NCBI RefSeq assembly: GCF_000185985.2
Contig: NC_014909.2
Location: 660,001 to 692,000 of the forward strand
DNA from: Candidatus Saccharimonadota bacterium
GTDB taxonomy: Bacteria > Pseudomonadota > Gammaproteobacteria > Enterobacterales > Enterobacteriaceae
Direction of reading: 5' to 3'
DNA: 32,000 bases
Shown: piece by piece, positions 4,646 to 32,000 of the stretch
Layout: every line of letters begins with the position of its first letter
Numbering within the stretch: the stretch's first letter is position 1
Translations under genes and position numbers: made by a program
The notes under the pieces: generated by a model
Told to the model about the DNA's origin: nothing
Databases searched by the model: none
What the model saw: only the letters and a program-made list of their open reading frames with translations

Positions 4646-4866
4646 ATTCCCTCGTATAGCATCGACAAGTAAATATAATACAATCTACTAGAAACAATAG
4701 TATATAATAAAAACTATTGCTTCTTATATATCTAGAAAGTAATACTCACCACTCTAAATCTAATTATATGTTAGATACACTTCGTTATAAAGATAAAAAA
4801 CATACATTTCATATCATACATATATTACTACATATTTTTAATATATAAACCATTAGTATAATATAC

Positions 4867-4901
4867 TTATTATAATAAATTATAATAATTTATTATAATA
4901 A
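4867..4901. repeat. Perfect 35-nt palindrome (17-bp arms, 1-nt centre), A/T only
   Basis: TTATTATAATAAATTAT-A-ATAATTTATTATAATAA, checked base by base. c4866 and c4902 stop further extension. Located in the divergent dapF/hemC spacer. Confidence 0.9.
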
Positions 4902-5209
4902 CTACAAATAAAGTTTTATATGCAATATATCCCATCCCCTTATACACACTATATAGCACATGCCCTAATTTATTTTATTACACATATCTTTCTTGATTTA
5001 ACCAAATATAAAATAATCTAGCTATCTATTCAAATAAATAATTAATTATATTATTACTTTCATATATTATTAATTTTCCTTATACGTATTATTATAAAGC
5101 TATATTTTCACAAATAAAATTATAAAAATTAATTCGAATATATTTGTTATTTTACCGATAACTAATGAAAATATAGTATTTTAAAAGTCATTCATAATAT
5201 AATCTATTT

Positions 5210-13223: not shown

Positions 13224-15086
13224 TTATAATAATTGGGATTTATCACGAACAGCACCTTTATCAGCACTAGTAACTAATTTAGCATATGCTTTTAAAGACA
13301 TAGACACAACCCGATCTCTGTTTATTGGAGTCCACGATTTAATTCCACGATTAATTTCCAACTCATTTCTCCGGTCTAAAACATACTTCGATACCTCCAA
13401 TGTAATATTACGTTCATCAATATCAATATTAATTATATCTCCATCATATACCAACCCAATTAAACCTCCGGATGCTGCTTCCGGAGAGATATGTCCAATT
13501 GACAAACCTGAAGTTCCTCCTGAAAACCTTCCATCTGTAATTAATGCACAACACATATCTAAATTCATAGACTTCAAAAAAGAAGTAGGATATAACATTT
13601 CTTGCATCCCAGGACCTCCTTTTGGACCTTCATATCGAATCACTATTACATCACCTGGGCATATTTTACCCGTTAAAATAGCTTGTACAGATTCTTCTTG
13701 ACTTTCATACACTTTAGCAGGACCTCGAAACTTTCTTAAACTTATACTAACCCCCGCCGTTTTGACAAGACACCCTCCTTTGGCGATATTACCATACAAT
13801 ACAGCTAAGCCACCATCTTGACTATAAGCATAAGCTCGACTTCTAATACATCCAGAGCAACGATCTATATCTAACGCACTCCATCTTTTATTTTGACTAA
13901 ATGCCTTAGTCGTACGTATCCCGGCAGGAGCTGCAGCATACATTTTTTTTATTTTAAAATCATTACATGACAATATATCATATTGTAGTAATGTTTCTAA
14001 TAAAGATTTATTAAGTATATTATTGACATTTGTATTCAATAAACCACAACTATTCAATTCTCCAAGAATACCCATCACTCCTCCAGCTTTATGAAAGTCT
14101 TCTACATAATACTGTTTAGAATTTGGAGCTATTTTACATAAATAAGGTACTTTTTTAGATAATTGATCTATATCTTTCATAGTAAACTCTATTTCTCCTT
14201 CTTGAGCAGCGGCTAATAAATGCAACACAGTATTAGTAGATCCTCCCATAGCAATATCCAACATCATTGCATTCTCAAACGCCAACCTATTTGCTATATT
14301 ACGGGGTAAAACAGAATAATTATCCTCTTCATAGTATAAGTTAGCTAATTTCATAATATTCCTACCAGCATCTATAAACATTGTTCTACGATCACAATGT
14401 GTTGCTAATAATGACCCATTACCTGGTTGAGCTAATCCTAATGCTTCTGTTAAACAATTCATAGAATTTGCAGTAAACATTCCTGAACAAGAACCACATG
14501 TAGGACATGCCGCTAATTCAATACGTTCTTTATCCTCTGTAGTAACTTTCGGATCAGCTGAAGAAACTATAACATCAACTAAACTCAATTTATTAATAGT
14601 ATTATGACCATTACTCTCAGATAACCTAATTGATCCTGATTCCATTGGTCCTCCAGATACAAAAATAGTTGGAATATTTAACCTCAATGCTGCCATTAAC
14701 ATTCCAGGAGTAATTTTATCACAATTAGAAATACATACCATGGCATCAACACAATGAGCATTAATTACATATTCCACAGAATCAGCAATTAAATCTCTAG
14801 ATGGTAAAGAATATAACATTCCACTATGTCCCATAGCAATTCCATCATCAATAGCAATAGTATTAAATTCTTTTGCAACTCCACCATTCATATTAATTTC
14901 CTTAGCAACTATTTTCCCTACATCTCTTAAATGAATGTGCCCTGGAACAAATTGAGTAAATGAATTTACTACAGCAACAATAATTTTATTAAAATCCTCA
15001 GAAACCATACCCGTAGCGCGCCACAAAGCTCTAGCACCAGCCATATTCTGACCCTGGGTAGTAATAGATGAACGATATTTAGGCAT
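13224..15086 (-). CDS. ilvD: Dihydroxy-acid dehydratase
   Basis: 620 aa. [27 protein letters not shown] and [12 protein letters not shown] match E. coli IlvD. Confidence 0.97.
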
Positions 15087-16175: not shown

Positions 16176-16415
16176 TCATCTAACCTCAATATATTGGATA
16201 TCTACTAATTTATTTAATTGAGTACATAACAAATATATTGCCTTTTCACTGGAAACCGTTAAAAATAAAGTTATCTGTTTATTATTATCGATATTATACA
16301 CAATCGTATTTAATGCACACAACTCAAACCCTCGATGTCGAGTAACTCTAAGAATACGTTCCACTACTTCTGAACAAAACCTAGCTTGTATAAACAAAGA
16401 ATAATAAACAATCAT
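16176..16415 (-). CDS. ilvM: Acetolactate synthase II small (regulatory) subunit
   Basis: 79 aa. ERILRVTRHRGFELCALN and QLNKLVD align with E. coli IlvM (LERVLRVVRHRGFHVCSMN, QLNKLVD). Located between ilvG and ilvE. Confidence 0.85.
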   Translation of the reverse strand: MIVYYSLFIQARFCSEVVERILRVTRHRGFELCALNTIVYNIDNNKQITLFLTVSSEKAIYLLCTQLNKLVDIQYIEVR

Positions 16416-16456: not shown

Positions 16457-18139
16457 TCATTCATTCCTAATTAACATAGAATCATTTGAAGCACCAGGAG
16501 GTACTAATGGCCAAACATTGGCACTCTCATCAATTAAAGCATGCAATAAGAAAGGCCCTGTATTTGAAAATAGCATATCAATCGCATCTAATATTTGAGA
16601 TCTCTGAGAAATATACACACCGCTAATATTAAATGCTTTAGCTAAAATAAGAAAATCTGGGTTATCATCTAAAATAGTTTCACTGTAACGTTTATCAAAA
16701 AATAATTCTTGCCATTGACGCACCATTCCTAATCGTTTATTATCCAATAAAATAATTTTTATGGGTAATTTCCTTCGTTTAATAGTAGCTAGTTCCTGTA
16801 CATTCATCATAAATGACCCATCACCTGAAACACATATTACCATATCATTAGGACGACCTATTTGCGCTCCAATTGCTGCAGGAGTACCAAACCCCATAGT
16901 CCCTAGACCTCCAGAAGTAATAAAATTTTCTGGTCGATTAAATTGCATATGCTGTGCAGCCCACATTTGATGTTGACCAACATCAGTAGTGATAATAGTA
17001 TCAACAGGAGCATTATCACTAATTGTTTTTAATAAAACTGGAGCAGAAATCTTATCATTCCCAGAATCATAAGACCACTTATATTTCGATTTCAATAATT
17101 TTACCTGTTCTTGCCACAATGCAATAGATAACGTTTGAGTTAACTCTAATAACAAATCATTTAAACTGCCCGATATACAAACATGTGCTGTACGCAACTT
17201 ATTAAACTCTGCTAAATCAATATCTAAATGAATTATTTTTGCTTTTGGAGCAAAAGTATTCAATTCTCCAGTAACTCTATCATCAAACCTTGCTCCGATT
17301 ACAATTAGTAAATCACATTGTTGTACTGCTAAATTAGCTGCTTGATTACCATGCATTCCTAACATACCTAAATAATAATCCTCAGTATAATCCGGAGCGC
17401 CCAATCCTTTTAATGTTACTACAGTAGGTATGCCAGTATTAGCAATAAATTTCCTTAATGATAAAACCGCTCCAGCCATTCCTACTCCACCGCCTACATA
17501 TATGACAGGACACTTTGATTGAGACATCAACACACGCGCTAAAGCAATATTATCTTTGTTTGTATAAATATGATGATTACAAACACTATGTTTATCGTTT
17601 TTTACAGAAGCTTGTGCAAAAGAAAAAATACCTCCTTCTCTACTAGACGACAATTGAATATCCTTAGGTATATCTATAAGCACTGGACCTTGTCTTCCAT
17701 ATAACGCAATTGAAAATGCTTCATCAATAATATCAGGCAATACATCTAAAGAATGCACCAAAAAACTATGTTTAGTGCATGCCAATGATAAACCTAAAAC
17801 ATCTATTTCTTGAAACGCATCGGTTCCAATGAACTTTAATCCAACTTGACCAGTGATAGCTATTATCGGAATTGAATCCAATAACGCATCAGCTAACCCA
17901 GTAATTAAATTAGTTGCCCCAGGCCCAGATGTAGCAAAACATACTCCAACTCTACCTGTAGCTCTAGCATATCCAATAGCTGCAATTATTGCGCCCTGTT
18001 CATGCCGACACAATAAATGCTTAATTTCAGAATCAAATAAAGCATCATACATTGGCATAATAGCCCCCCCCGGATAACCAAAAATTACATCTACCCCTCG
18101 TTGTTGTAACTCTTTAATTACCCACTGAGCCCCATTCAT
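16457..18139 (-). CDS. ilvG: Acetolactate synthase II large subunit (intact)
   Basis: 560 aa. [60 protein letters not shown] and [11 protein letters not shown] match full-length IlvG. Confidence 0.96.
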
Positions 18140-18442
18140 AATAATTGCTTCTCATCATCAATTATATTAAAACTGATATCATACAAAAATAAATAATCAT
18201 TAATATTTTATTTTTATTTTAATCCGACAATATCATACAGTATGTTATACTTGAGAAAAACAATGGAAATTATATACTGCGCAATAGTTTATGTGAATAA
18301 ACTATTATTTACATACATCAAAAAAAATTATATACTGTAAAATAATCACTTATATAAAAATTATAAAATCATTATTTTAAATAAACTAATTGATTATAAA
18401 TGGGCACAACTCATTATATAACACATATTCGTTTATCTAAAA

Positions 18443-18460
18443 CAGTGTATGCATCCACTG
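18443..18460. repeat. 18-nt near-perfect palindrome CAGTGTATGCATCCACTG (8 of 9 pairs)
   Basis: Read directly from the sequence. It is relatively G/C-rich inside an otherwise G-poor 843-bp spacer. On the minus strand it is followed by TTTTAG. Confidence 0.8.
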
Positions 18461-18982
18461 TAATTCTTCATTGATAACAAAACAATATATCAAAATCTTC
18501 CATTAAAATACCCCCATTACTTCATTATATACAATAATGAGATTATACAAAAAACAACATCTAACCTTTATTATTAATTTAAAACCTAATTCTAAAAAAT
18601 ACCATACATAATTACATCATAAACTACTAAAAATTTTTAAAATTGAATTACATACACTATTTATTCTTACATCTGTATAATAATTTTTATTATTACTTAT
18701 ACTCATTAAAATATATATAAACATTAATTATACTACAAAAATATATTTTTAATAAACCACCCACCCCTAAATTGTATTTACAATAATAAAATTCATAAGA
18801 TACCATTTACTTAATATATCAATAATTAATACTACTTATTTTTATTCTCTCTTATACATAAAATACATAATCTCACCGAGTCTGATATATATTGATATCT
18901 TAAAATACTTCACATAATTTAATTCTGTAAACAACAAAACTATATATTACTGATGAATACATAATTATAAAAACTCAATCAG

Positions 18983-29699: not shown

Positions 29700-30182
29700 T
29701 TATTCCCTTTTCTGATTAGCACCAATTTTATTTGTTTTTAAAAATAAAGGAAAATTCTCTTCCCAACTTAAAATACCCCCTTTCAATAAATACACCTCCA
29801 TATACCCCAATTTCTTTAAATGCCTTCTCAACGCAAATAATGACCATCCTCTACAAACATCATGTACAATAATTAACGGACTTCTTTTATTTTTAACCCA
29901 ATCACTCATTGAAAAAACAACACCATACTTTATATCCTCAATTTTTACATTAATACTATTTATAATATGACCAGATAAATATTCATTTGAACTTCTTATA
30001 TCTAAAACCACTGCATTCCTTTTATTAATCAAAAAAACAACTTTATCACAAGAAATTTCAAAATAACCAAACACATACCCTATAATAAAATTATATACCA
30101 CGATAAAAAAAAACACACACCACACAGAAACTAAAAATAAATGCCTCTCTGTAAATGCCACCAATTCTCTTAATAACATCAT
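29700..30182 (-). CDS. yibN: Membrane-anchored rhodanese-domain protein (YibN-like)
   Basis: ORF 29700..30191 (the track start is TTG). An N-terminal hydrophobic helix is followed by a rhodanese fold. AVVLDIRSSNEYLSGHIINSIN and LKGGILSW align with E. coli YibN. ATG at 30182 or 30179 is more likely. It lies 5 nt upstream of grxC, as in E. coli. Confidence 0.8.
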   Translation of the reverse strand: MMLLRELVAFTERHLFLVSVWCVFFFIVVYNFIIGYVFGYFEISCDKVVFLINKRNAVVLDIRSSNEYLSGHIINSINVKIEDIKYGVVFSMSDWVKNKRSPLIIVHDVCRGWSLFALRRHLKKLGYMEVYLLKGGILSWEENFPLFLKTNKIGANQKRE

Positions 30183-30577
30183 TAACAACAATTAATCATG
30201 ATTTTCTTACATCAACTCTTTAAAAACAAAAATAATTAAATATTTCCCTTTTTTACCGATTAATCATCCCCTATTCAAATAACAATCAAACTAACACACC
30301 TCAAGTTTAAACTCATATACTTTACAAACAACCAACCCATGCATAAGCTTTTATGCACTAAAACAAATTACCTCTCATACAATAGTAACACACATACATA
30401 TATTACTACCAAAATTATTAAAAGTAAACATTTTCTCTTATCTGATTTTCATACCTAAAATAGATAAAAGAAACAACGTACAATTTTCTATAATTCAATT
30501 GACAAACCCCTCCAATTCAAAGATACTACTCAGTATAATGGGAAGAGAGAAGAAAACTAATATATATATAACTATAA

Positions 30578-30657
30578 CATACCACAATCAAATAATATAT
30601 ACACACCTTCGTATGTGGCTGTAGCGTTTGTGTGTGCTACGATTGAGCTGTGGTATG
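30578..30657. other. Strand-composition switch point with nested inverted repeats (candidate replication origin core)
   Basis: Hand counts give G about 22 and C about 86 for 30181-30600, against G about 119 and C about 53 for 30601-31260. The outer inverted repeat is CATACCACAATC (30578-30589) versus GATTG[AGCTG]TGGTATG (30641-30657). The inner one is ACACAC (30601-30606) versus GTGTGT (30630-30635). Both are centred near 30618. (TA)5 lies at 30561-30570 and a polypurine tract at 30540-30556. Flanking genes are divergent. Confidence 0.45.
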
Positions 30658-31254
30658 ATGAATGAAAAAAAATAGTTTATATTTGTGCCCGGCCTTTATT
30701 ATTATTGTATGCTACCTTCACTATTTTTAGCGGTTAATGTTCTTTAGAGAAAATCTAAAAAGAAATTTGAAGAATAGATTTCTTGTATAGTTATAAGAAG
30801 GGTCGGTAATAAGTCTTGGGAAGTAAAGTTGGACTTTTTAGTGAAAGTAACAGTTATATATAAAATATATCATAGAATTATTGATCAGTAAAAATAAGAT
30901 ATTGTAAAGTGTATTTATTCTTAATGATGAAATTAAAAAATCAATGTTGGGATATACACTTATGGTGGTGTGATGATATTAGTATAGTATATATGTTTTA
31001 AAATTATTTTACTTTCCTTATTTATATAATTAAAATGGTAGAAAAGCATGTGGTATTGTTGTGGGGTCAGAAATAAAAAATCCATTAAATAAAGATACAA
31101 AGTAATGTATAGAGATGACTTATTGAAAATAAGAAATTGATCCGATATGTTCATTGTGTAAAAAATTAAAAATAATAATTTAATATGCACTAAAGGGCAT
31201 ATATTTAGTATATATCATATATTTTTTATGTAGAAAACTCAGAGATATTGAGAC

Positions 31255-32000
31255 ATGATTATAGTTACTGGAGGAGCTGGATTTGTTGGTAGAAATATTA
31301 TAAAAAAGTTGAATGAGGTAGAGAAAAAAGAAATATTAGTAGTCGATAATCTTAGTAATGGTAAAAAATATAGAAATTTAATGAATTTAGATATTTCAGA
31401 TTATTTAGATAAAGATTATTTTATAAATAAATTATTAGATAACCCTAGTTATTTTAAAAATATAGAAGTAGTATTCCATGAAGGTGCTTGTTCTAATACA
31501 AGGGAATGGAATGGTAAATATTTGATGAAAAATAATTATGAATATTCTAAATTACTTTTATTTTACTGTATAAAATATGAGATTCCTTTTATATATGCCT
31601 CTTCTGCTTCAGTGTATGGATCAAATATGTGCAATGTTTATTGTCGTAATAATAAAATTATTAATTCAATTGAGAATCCGGTTACTATGTATGGTTACTC
31701 TAAATTTTTATTTGATCGGTATGTACATAATATATTGCCTAAGGTAAAGTCTCAAGTATGTGGTTTACGATATTTTAATATATACGGTCCTCATGAATTT
31801 CATAAAGGCCGAATGGCAAGTGTTATTTTAAATATATATAAAAAAGTTAAAAATAAAGAAAGTCCTATTTTATTTGTTGGAAGTAAAAATTTTAAAAGAG
31901 ATTTTGTATACATAGATGATATAGTGAATGTGAATTTATGGATTTGGTATAATAAAATATCTGGTATTTTTGATTGTGGTACGGGTCACGCTAGGTCTTT
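31255..32000 (+). CDS. hldD: ADP-L-glycero-D-manno-heptose 6-epimerase (3' end beyond the window)
   Basis: Not in the ORF track because no stop occurs before the window end. My translation from ATG 31255 gives MIIVTGGAGFVGRNIIKKLNE...VVFHEGACS...YASSASVYG...MYGYSKFLFD...RYFNIYGP...FKRDFVYIDD. This is colinear with E. coli HldD/RfaD (MIIVTGGAGFIGSNIV..., YGYSKFLFD, FRYFNVYGP). Confidence 0.92.
   Translation, partial: MIIVTGGAGFVGRNIIKKLNEVEKKEILVVDNLSNGKKYRNLMNLDISDYLDKDYFINKLLDNPSYFKNIEVVFHEGACSNTREWNGKYLMKNNYEYSKLLLFYCIKYEIPFIYASSASVYGSNMCNVYCRNNKIINSIENPVTMYGYSKFLFDRYVHNILPKVKSQVCGLRYFNIYGPHEFHKGRMASVILNIYKKVKNKESPILFVGSKNFKRDFVYIDDIVNVNLWIWYNKISGIFDCGTGHARS

What the first reader, a model, noticed from the sequence alone, without database searches (positions are those of the whole stretch)
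30578..30657. Sharp origin-type polarity switch between yibN and hldD, on nested inverted repeats, with no DnaA-box cluster or canonical origin neighbours
Every non-coding stretch to the left has a G-poor, C- and A-rich plus strand. My hand counts for 30181-30600 are G about 22 and C about 86. From about 30611 rightwards the plus strand becomes G- and T-rich; for 30601-31260 I count G about 119 and C about 53. The change happens within about 10 nt, inside non-coding DNA, so it is not a codon effect. Leading strands are generally G>C and T>A, so this direction of change means forks diverge here, which is origin polarity and not terminus polarity. Gene orientation agrees: 21 of 25 CDSs and all 7 tRNAs to the left are on the minus strand, and hldD to the right is on the plus strand.

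The switch sits on concentric inverted repeats centred near 30618. The outer pair is CATACCACAATC versus GATTG[AGCTG]TGGTATG and the inner pair is ACACAC versus GTGTGT. These are preceded by a 17-nt polypurine tract (30540-30556) and (TA)5 (30561-30570).

The context is not a canonical gammaproteobacterial oriC. There is no dnaA, dnaN, mnmG/gidA, mioC or rpmH nearby. I saw no TTATCCACA-like 9-mer within 2 mismatches in 30192-31254, and only two GATC sites. If the genome lacks dnaA, as some insect endosymbionts do, this would be a candidate DnaA-independent origin.

One caveat applies to the repeats. Complementary composition on the two sides inflates chance inverted matches across the junction.
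Basis: partly seen in the sequence, partly recalled or inferred. Interest (0 to 1): 0.7.

Follow-up and report, generated by a model that had tools for sequence, protein, structure and literature searches.

The report
Known relocated replication origin, Blochmannia vafer
The sharp strand-composition flip between yibN and hldD is real and marks the putative DnaA-independent replication origin of the ant endosymbiont Blochmannia vafer, but this was already published in 2010-2011. What I add is only fine detail at the flip point.

Summary
The window is Candidatus Blochmannia vafer BVAF. The GC-skew switch is real. A maximum-likelihood change point falls at 30610/30611 inside the 1063-nt yibN-hldD spacer. 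All 20 intergenic stretches to the left, and even the plus-strand genes there, are C-rich on the plus strand. The polarity is that of an origin.

Williams & Wernegreen (BMC Genomics 2010; GBE 2011) already assigned the origin of B. vafer and B. floridanus to the skew shift in this same spacer. They noted the missing dnaA and the missing DnaA-box cluster, and proposed a ~31.5-kb relocation from mnmG. The core finding is therefore already known.

Comparison with ten other Blochmannia lineages supports relocation. Gene order is conserved, but only B. vafer and B. floridanus change sign here.

The nested inverted repeats are only weakly above chance (9-bp perfect stem, P=0.085; fold energy p≈0.008, post hoc).

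New details:
- The switch lies 0-75 nt downstream of a conserved hldD promoter block.
- It coincides with the most GC-rich intergenic 60-mer of the window (48% against a 21% mean).
- B. floridanus has a non-homologous GC-rich 34-bp palindrome at the same place.

The initiation mechanism remains unknown. The genus lacks dnaA, dnaC, priA and recA.

The parts
29700..30191 (-). yibN (rhodanese-domain protein), the last gene of the left replichore side
   Evidence: 100% identical to the B. vafer BVAF protein P0001. Rhodanese family hits. Plus-strand GC3 skew -0.95.
30192..31254 (.). yibN-hldD intergenic spacer (1063 nt) that contains the skew switch. It is 500-750 nt longer than in ten relatives.
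   Evidence: Left part 30192-30610 has G22/C88. Right part 30611-31254 has G118/C48.
30499..30541 (+). Conserved rightward promoter-like block: TTGACA-17 nt-GATACT (30499-30527) followed by TATAATGG (30534-30541). Presumed hldD promoter.
   Evidence: Best sigma-70-like match in the spacer, 10 of 12. The homologous block in B. floridanus is L011 9843-9891. The AATTGACA/AATTAACA block also aligns in no-switch lineages.
30540..30556 (+). 17-nt polypurine tract GGGAAGAGAGAAGAAAA, immediately downstream of the promoter block
   Evidence: Not conserved in B. floridanus.
30557..30610 (.). Last stretch with left-type composition (0 G, 12 C). Includes (TA)5 at 30561-30570 and the left arm of the inverted repeat.
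30610..30611 (.). Maximum-likelihood GC-skew change point, the inferred fork-divergence point
   Evidence: support 30607-30617 (whole window) or 30531-30615 (spacer only).
30578..30657 (.). Imperfect dyad. Outer perfect 9-bp stem 30578-30586/30649-30657, inner ACACAC/GTGTGT at 30601-30606/30630-30635, and a GTAGC/GCTAC hairpin at 30620-30626/30635-30641.
   Evidence: It is the most stable 80-nt window of the spacer, but only marginally beyond chance.
30602..30661 (.). GC island at 48% GC, the most GC-rich 60-nt intergenic stretch of the 32-kb window
   Evidence: intergenic mean 21%, sd 6%, 99th percentile 38%. The runner-up at 16329 is in fact ilvM coding sequence. The counterpart in B. floridanus is at 43% GC.
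31155..31163 (-). Single relaxed-consensus DnaA box (TTTTACACA), isolated and probably meaningless in a genome without dnaA
31255..32000 (+). hldD (ADP-glyceromanno-heptose 6-epimerase), 5' part. It is the first gene of the right side and now lies on the G-rich strand.
   Evidence: P0005, 100%. GC3 skew +0.42.

Best explanation
Position ~30,611 is the point from which the two replication forks of the Blochmannia vafer chromosome diverge. It is the DnaA-independent origin that moved from the ancestral mnmG site to the yibN-hldD spacer in the common ancestor of B. vafer and B. floridanus, about 31.5 kb away, as Williams & Wernegreen proposed.

**Shown.**
- The compositional switch has origin polarity and is resolved to about 10-80 nt.
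- It is absent from nine syntenic relatives.
- The genus lacks dnaA.

**Inferred, low confidence (~25%).** Initiation may be coupled to rightward transcription from the conserved hldD promoter that lies 75-110 nt upstream. In this model an RNA-DNA hybrid or a paused transcript forms at the GC-rich dyad element (30578-30661). RNase HI processes it and Pol I extends it, which starts the rightward leading strand. The displaced or extruded dyad then gives DnaB access for the leftward fork. How DnaB is loaded without DnaA, DnaC or PriA is not explained by anything seen here.
For: **Organism.** yibN and hldD are 100% identical to the B. vafer BVAF proteins.

**Switch.**
- change point at 30610/11.
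- Every intergenic stretch and every gene on the left, whatever its strand, is C-rich on the plus strand.
- hldD and the right part of the spacer are G-rich.

**Same switch in B. floridanus.** In L011 the 4-kb flanks read -0.46 | +0.14, with GC3 skew up to +0.85 on the right for 11 kb.

**No sign change in syntenic relatives.** L007, L009/L010, L014, L015, L017 and L018 are all C-rich on both sides. L008 and L016 are G-rich on both sides. B. chromaiodes is almost unskewed.

**Phylogeny.** vafer and floridanus are sisters in a 9-protein tree (87% bootstrap), which fits a single relocation.

**Transcription cannot be the cause.** The hldD leader of the no-switch lineage L007 is still C-rich (my count of about G10/C21, from the alignment), so transcription alone does not give the G-rich composition.

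**Literature.**
- Skew shift within the yibN-hldD spacer, no dnaA-box cluster, relocation of ~31.5 kb (PMC3017870; PMC3268670).
- dnaA is absent in Camponotus Blochmannia (PMC4389277).

**For the transcription-coupled sub-model.**
- A conserved promoter block sits just upstream of the switch in both species.
- The GC island and dyad sit at the switch in both switch-bearing species and are the top intergenic GC window of each locus. Nine of the no-switch lineages scored (L010 was not, being nearly identical to L009 here) have spacer maxima of 22-32%.
- rnhA, rnhB, dnaB and recBCD are listed in the ortholog table, while priA and dnaC are not.
- polA is seen in L011 and L014.
- topA was lost in the Camponotus clade.
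Against: **Limits of the data.**
- Only 1.4 kb of B. vafer sequence lies right of the switch in the window. I could not recompute the global minimum, so that point rests on the two papers.
- There is no experimental origin mapping for any Blochmannia.

**Against a role for the dyad or GC island.**
- The 9-bp stem has P=0.085.
- Long perfect palindromes are common in B. floridanus spacers, with 5 in 21 kb.
- B. chromaiodes, which has no switch here, has hairpins in the same leader with a better fold energy than B. vafer's (-16.2 against -10.7 kcal/mol).
- The vafer and floridanus elements are not alignable.
- The two species share one ancestral relocation event, so the correlation is effectively n=1.

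**Against the R-loop sub-model.**
- The polypurine tract is not conserved in B. floridanus.
- The known R-loop-primed chromosomal pathway (cSDR) needs RecA and PriA, both absent.
Confidence: 0.85

Rival explanations
1. The origin is real, but the inverted repeats and GC island have nothing to do with initiation. They would be an hldD leader element (attenuator, RNA structure or operator) or one of the many intergenic palindromes of Blochmannia, and lie at the switch by coincidence because the spacer is short.
For: - Palindromes are frequent in B. floridanus spacers.
- B. chromaiodes has leader hairpins without a switch.
- The vafer stem is not significant on its own.
- RNA fold z-scores are modest: -2.3 on the plus strand and -3.9 on the minus strand.
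- The element lies in the presumed 5' UTR of hldD.
Against: - In both switch-bearing species the element is the single most GC-rich intergenic 60-mer of the whole locus, in genomes under strong AT pressure.
- Nine no-switch lineages lack such an island in this spacer.
- The GC island taken alone has no unusual RNA structure (z=0.08), so leader folding does not explain its GC content.
Confidence: 0.45
2. The switch is a rearrangement scar, either a local inversion breakpoint or an inverted duplication, and not a fork-divergence point.
For: - The B. vafer spacer carries about 600 extra nt on the right.
- The left part shows weak inverted similarity to the right part (score 23 against 17.3±2.4, p≈0.02).
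Against: - Gene order and orientation around yibN|hldD are identical in 11 lineages.
- The hldD coding sequence itself carries the new skew.
- In B. floridanus the new polarity continues for 11 kb without extra spacer DNA.
- Published alignments report strictly conserved gene order among Camponotus Blochmannia.
Confidence: 0.03
3. The flip is caused by divergent transcription from the yibN and hldD promoters (transcription-coupled mutation bias), not by replication.
For: - The switch lies in a divergent promoter region, 0-75 nt downstream of the hldD promoter block.
- Part of the step size at this spacer in no-switch lineages does follow gene strand, for example -0.29 | -0.08 in L014.
Against: - Plus-strand genes on the left keep negative plus-strand GC3 skew.
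- All untranscribed spacers on the left are C-rich.
- Nine lineages with the same divergent genes and promoter show no sign change.
- The L007 hldD leader is C-rich.
Confidence: 0.03

Closest known systems
Published putative origin of Blochmannia vafer and B. floridanus (Williams & Wernegreen, BMC Genomics 2010, PMC3017870; Genome Biol Evol 2011, PMC3268670)
   Same: Same genome, same spacer (yibN-hldD) and same evidence (GC-skew shift, no dnaA, no dnaA-box cluster). Same conclusion: an origin relocated ~31.5 kb from mnmG in the vafer+floridanus ancestor.
   Different: In the passages I read, the papers located the shift with 1-kb sliding windows. They did not describe its position relative to the hldD promoter, the dyad or the GC island. 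Palindromes were counted genome-wide but not linked to the origin.
Gammaproteobacterial oriC (E. coli type, DnaA-dependent, next to mnmG/mioC)
   Same: Origin-type GC-skew polarity, location in an intergenic region, and bidirectional fork divergence inferred.
   Different: No dnaA gene, no DnaA-box cluster, only two GATC sites and no mnmG/mioC/dnaA/dnaN neighbours. The switch sits on the most GC-rich part of the spacer, not on an AT-rich unwinding element.
Transcript-primed origins: ColE1 RNA II/RNase H/Pol I, the mitochondrial LSP-CSBII-OH arrangement, and the phage T7 primary origin (established knowledge, recalled)
   Same: A promoter a short distance upstream, followed by a purine/G-rich or structured GC-rich segment, with the start of one leading strand downstream in the direction of transcription. 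RNase HI and Pol I are retained in the genus.
   Different: - No experimental evidence of priming.
- ColE1 relies on PriA-dependent primosome assembly, and priA is absent.
- The sequence elements are not conserved between the two Blochmannia species.
E. coli constitutive stable DNA replication (oriK sites in rnhA or topA mutants)
   Same: DnaA-independent chromosomal initiation linked to R-loops. The Camponotus Blochmannia have lost topA, a condition that favours R-loops in E. coli.
   Different: - cSDR requires RecA and PriA, and is unmasked by loss of RNase HI.
- Blochmannia lack recA and priA but keep rnhA.
- oriK sites are diffuse, whereas this switch is sharp.

Membership tests
DnaA-dependent bacterial oriC | Cluster of DnaA boxes (TTATCCACA / TTWTNCACA) | tested here: not met
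   The spacer has 4 hits with 2 mismatches, none with 1 or fewer, and one relaxed-consensus box at 31155(-). The window-wide count is at chance: 169 against 165±13.
DnaA-dependent bacterial oriC | dnaA gene present in the genome | not testable with these tools
   The whole genome is not available here. The literature reports dnaA missing in all four sequenced Camponotus Blochmannia, including B. vafer (PMC4389277; PMC3268670).
DnaA-dependent bacterial oriC | AT-rich unwinding element with 13-mer repeats, and GATC clustering | tested here: not met
   There are two GATC sites in 1063 nt. 13-mer-like matches occur only at 2 mismatches in AT-rich DNA. The switch lies on a local GC maximum.
DnaA-dependent bacterial oriC | Conserved neighbours (mnmG, mioC, dnaA, dnaN, rpmH) | tested here: not met
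   The flanking genes are yibN/grxC/gpsA/cysE on one side and hldD on the other. mnmG is ~31.5 kb away according to PMC3268670.
Chromosomal replication origin defined by compositional asymmetry | GC-skew sign change with origin polarity that is independent of gene strand | tested here: met
Chromosomal replication origin defined by compositional asymmetry | The switch is the global cumulative-skew minimum of the chromosome | not testable with these tools
   Only 32 kb is held, and the source genome could not be retrieved from the contig collections. It is reported as such in PMC3017870 and PMC3268670.
ColE1-type transcript-primed origin | Promoter upstream that directs transcription through the origin | tested here: inconclusive
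   There is a conserved TTGACA-17-GATACT block 83-112 nt upstream of the switch. This is a consensus match only. No transcript data exist.
ColE1-type transcript-primed origin | RNase H and DNA polymerase I available | tested here: met
   rnhA and rnhB are in the Blochmannia ortholog table. A Pol I gene is called in L011 and L014. This is shown for the genus, not directly for B. vafer.
ColE1-type transcript-primed origin | PriA-dependent primosome assembly site on the displaced strand | tested here: not met
   priA has no entry in the ortholog table and is reported absent in B. floridanus (PMC2671203).
E. coli cSDR / iSDR (DnaA-independent stable DNA replication) | Dependence on RecA and PriA | tested here: not met
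   recA was lost ancestrally and priA is absent. Wu et al. 2006 rule out these pathways for species that lack dnaA.

The most novel reading that the evidence does not exclude
After losing DnaA, and with no DnaC, PriA or RecA, Blochmannia start chromosome replication at promoter-proximal, GC-rich dyad elements by a transcription-coupled mechanism. Because such sites are easy to create, the origin is evolutionarily mobile.

Under this reading, the 30578-30661 element just downstream of the hldD promoter would be the replicator. The B. floridanus 34-bp palindrome would be its functional equivalent, replaced in sequence. The three skew states at this one syntenic locus among 11 lineages would record repeated origin hopping.
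Probability: 0.15. Interest if true: 0.75.

Novelty: already known. Interest (0 to 1): 0.35.

Why it matters
How bacteria replicate without DnaA is a real open question. Several insect endosymbionts, some cyanobacteria and plastids do so, and Blochmannia are an extreme case because they also lack DnaC, PriA and RecA.

The strong mutational skew of this genome lets the fork-divergence point be read from sequence to within tens of nucleotides. That gives a concrete ~150-bp target (promoter block plus GC-rich dyad, 30499-30661) for read-depth, nascent-strand or R-loop mapping.

The existence and location of the origin itself are not new, so the finding mainly confirms published work.

Tried and rejected
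1. **Retrieving the source genome or more of it.** The genome-contig scan with hldD returned no Blochmannia. Exact look-ups of grxC and yibN from the window were not on record. I therefore could not recompute global skew.
2. **Rfam scan of the spacer.** It gave only a spurious sub-threshold hit, and ARAGORN finds no tRNA there. There is no known RNA family.
3. **Iteron idea.** TGTGGTATG occurs exactly only as the two repeat arms. With 1 mismatch it is at chance in the window and absent from the B. floridanus spacer. Rejected.
4. **Homology between the vafer and floridanus GC-rich elements.** Local alignment scores fall within the shuffle range.
5. **Origin of the extra ~600 nt in B. vafer.** Sensitive blastn against all the loci I held gave only AT-rich noise, and the six-frame ORFs are short.
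6. **Large inverted duplication across the switch.** Marginal only (p≈0.02).
7. **PriA-recognised hairpin model and RecA/PriA-dependent stable replication.** Rejected because these genes are absent.
8. **Gil et al. 2003 (PMC170928).** The paper is not held.

Full report
**Identity of the window.** The yibN product is 100% identical to the rhodanese-like protein of Candidatus Blochmannia vafer str. BVAF (722,585-bp genome). The partial hldD is 100% identical to that strain's epimerase. The gene order, from NCBIfam scans, ORFs and tRNAs, is: yigL, corA, yigB, dapF, hemC(+), hemD(+), four tRNAs, rho, trxA, ilvC, ilvA, ilvD, ilvE, ilvM, ilvG, three tRNAs, murI, metF, metB, rpmE, fpr(+), tpiA(+), pfkA, cysE, gpsA, grxC, yibN, then the spacer, then hldD(+).

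- One-kb windows have plus-strand GC skew of -0.10 to -0.60 over 30 kb and +0.34 to +0.37 after the spacer.
- A two-state likelihood change point falls between 30610 and 30611. The 2-lnL support is 30607-30617 when the whole window sets the background. It is 30531-30615 when only the spacer is used, because the polypurine tract at 30540-30556 is G-rich.
- Positions 30557-30610 hold no G at all.
- The skew follows the replication strand and not the gene strand. All 20 intergenic stretches on the left are C-rich (-0.26 to -0.80). The four plus-strand genes on the left also have negative plus-strand GC3 skew. hldD has +0.42.
- With the gene-rich, tRNA-bearing strand being the G-rich one, the polarity is that of an origin.

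Two sub-claims are wrong in detail. First, there are four TTATCCACA-like 9-mers with two mismatches in the spacer, and one relaxed TTWTNCACA match at 31155(-). All are at chance density and there is no cluster. Second, the right side is not T-rich, because the AT skew only falls from +0.18 to +0.01.

[quoted passage not shown] Their 2011 paper (PMC3268670) repeats this. [quoted passage not shown] Only these two papers in the held library mention Blochmannia together with yibN.

**Comparative test of the relocation.** I retrieved the syntenic locus from B. floridanus (L011), B. chromaiodes (L012, L013) and eight unnamed Blochmannia contigs assembled from ant sequencing runs (L007-L010, L014-L018). 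Every locus has the divergent yibN|hldD pair with the same neighbours, so no inversion is involved. In window orientation the 4-kb flanking skews are as follows.

| Lineage | Left / right skew | State |
|---|---|---|
| B. vafer | -0.43 / +0.39 | sign change |
| B. floridanus | -0.46 / +0.14 (GC3 up to +0.85 for 11 kb on the right) | sign change |
| L007, L009/L010, L015, L017, L018 | negative on both sides | no switch |
| L014 | negative left, about 0 right | intermediate |
| L008, L016 | positive on both sides | no switch, opposite polarity |
| B. chromaiodes | nearly unskewed | no switch |

A 9-protein NJ tree places vafer and floridanus as sisters (87% bootstrap). The negative-skew lineages form one clade (100%). 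L008 and L016 group with B. chromaiodes (100%). This fits a single relocation, as published. The leader of hldD in the no-switch lineage L007 is still C-rich, so transcription does not create the G-rich right side. The uniformly positive L008/L016 state suggests a further change of replication direction in another lineage, which I could not follow up.

**Fine structure at the switch.**

*Promoter block.* AATTGACA-17 nt-(G/A)ATACT...TATAATGG is shared by B. vafer (30496-30541) and B. floridanus (L011 9840-9891). Its -35 part also aligns in no-switch lineages. It is most simply the hldD promoter. In both switch-bearing species the change point lies 0-75 nt downstream of it.

The outer pair is a perfect 9-bp stem, and that 9-mer occurs nowhere else in the window. 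The 80-nt segment is the most stable in the spacer. Under shuffles that keep the side-specific composition, however, P(stem of at least 9 bp)=0.085. The fold-energy excess is z≈-3 (p≈0.008) for a window chosen after the fact. RNA z-scores are -2.3 and -3.9.

*B. floridanus palindrome.* B. floridanus carries a perfect 34-bp-stem palindrome (-38.7 kcal/mol) centred at L011 9931.5, inside the support interval of its switch. Long perfect palindromes are common in that genome's spacers, with five in 21 kb. B. chromaiodes also has leader hairpins without a switch.

*GC island.* This is the more striking feature. Window 30602-30661 is 48% GC, the highest of all 60-nt intergenic windows in 32 kb (mean 21%, 99th percentile 38%). 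The runner-up outside this spacer is actually ilvM coding sequence. The B. floridanus palindrome core is likewise the top intergenic window of its locus (43% against a 16% mean). Nine no-switch lineages reach only 22-32% in this spacer. The two islands are not alignable. In genomes under strong AT pressure this suggests constraint on a GC-rich dyad at that position. Because the two species share one ancestral event, the correlation is effectively a single observation.

**Mechanism.**

*Shown:* a fork-divergence signature in a genome without DnaA.

*From the literature:*
- Blochmannia also lack recA.
- priA and dnaC have no entries in the ortholog table. They are reported absent in B. floridanus, together with dnaT, fis and topA.
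- rnhA, rnhB, dnaB and recBCD are retained.
- A Pol I gene is present in L011 and L014.
- The known DnaA-independent pathways of E. coli, which depend on RecA and PriA, are therefore excluded, as Wu et al. 2006 already noted.

*My best guess, explicitly an inference (~25%):* initiation is transcription-coupled from the hldD promoter. The GC-rich dyad would act as a pause, hybrid or extrusion site, and RNase HI and Pol I would create the first leading strand. This resembles ColE1, mitochondrial LSP-CSBII-OH or phage T7 origins. Loss of topA would favour R-loops. The polypurine tract right after the promoter fits this model in B. vafer but is not conserved in B. floridanus. DnaB loading remains unexplained.

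**Rivals.**
- An inversion or duplication scar is contradicted by conserved synteny and by the skew of the hldD coding sequence. A weak inverted similarity across the switch (p≈0.02) is not enough to support it.
- Purely transcriptional skew is contradicted by the plus-strand genes on the left and by the nine no-switch lineages.
- The live rival concerns only the sub-claim. The dyad and GC island may be an hldD leader element that is unrelated to initiation.

**Verdict.** The modest added value has three parts:
- nucleotide-scale placement of the switch;
- its position next to a conserved promoter and on a GC-rich dyad shared in kind, though not in sequence, with B. floridanus;
- evidence from new lineages that the direction of replication through this locus differs among Blochmannia.

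Noticed in passing
L016:1-20939 and L008:1-12823 (syntenic metF...yibN|hldD...waa loci of unnamed Blochmannia): Both loci are G-rich on the window-equivalent plus strand on both sides of the spacer, for genes of either strand (GC3 +0.25 to +0.69). This is opposite to the negative-skew no-switch relatives. The region is therefore replicated in the other direction in this lineage (sister to B. chromaiodes), which implies a third origin position or a large rearrangement.
   Followed up: partly
L014:1-20954: This lineage groups with L017 in the no-switch clade, although its gene content resembles B. floridanus. It looks intermediate: left of the spacer GC3 skew is about -0.4, and right of it about 0. 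The state could be transitional or reflect mixed origin usage. It has no GC island or dyad in its spacer.
   Followed up: partly
window:30662-31254: B. vafer has about 600 nt of extra non-coding DNA between the conserved hldD promoter block and the hldD start, compared with ten relatives (spacers of 314-562 nt against 1063 nt). It is unusually GC-rich for intergenic DNA and has no detectable homolog or ORF. If the conserved promoter is used, the hldD leader is about 720 nt long.
   Followed up: partly
L011:2627-2688, 14621-14693, 17211-17272, 18237-18288: B. floridanus intergenic spacers carry many long perfect palindromes (26-35-bp arms, 0-4-nt loops), some between convergent genes. The equivalent B. 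vafer window has none of that quality.
   Followed up: no
window:16176-16415 (-): A 79-aa ORF between ilvE and ilvG is probably ilvM. It was missed by an 80-aa ORF cut-off. It explains the second-highest GC window among the apparent intergenic DNA.
   Followed up: partly
window:2069-3057, 4646-5209, 18140-18981: These are large gene-free gaps (989, 564 and 842 nt). By E. coli gene order they fall where uvrD, cyaY/cyaA and rRNA-operon parts would lie, so they are probably eroded remains of lost genes.
   Followed up: no
window:29189-29427; compare L007:10780-11229, L012:8196-8651, L016:8390-8842: secB is missing between grxC and gpsA in B. vafer, B. floridanus and several unnamed lineages, but present in L007, L008, L012/L013 and L016. 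This indicates repeated loss.
   Followed up: no
window:1-32000: Exact matches to the relaxed DnaA-box consensus TTWTNCACA are about twice as frequent as expected over the whole window (12 against 5.9±2.3; 2 of 100 shuffles reach 12). Nearly all lie outside the spacer, in a genome without dnaA.
   Followed up: no
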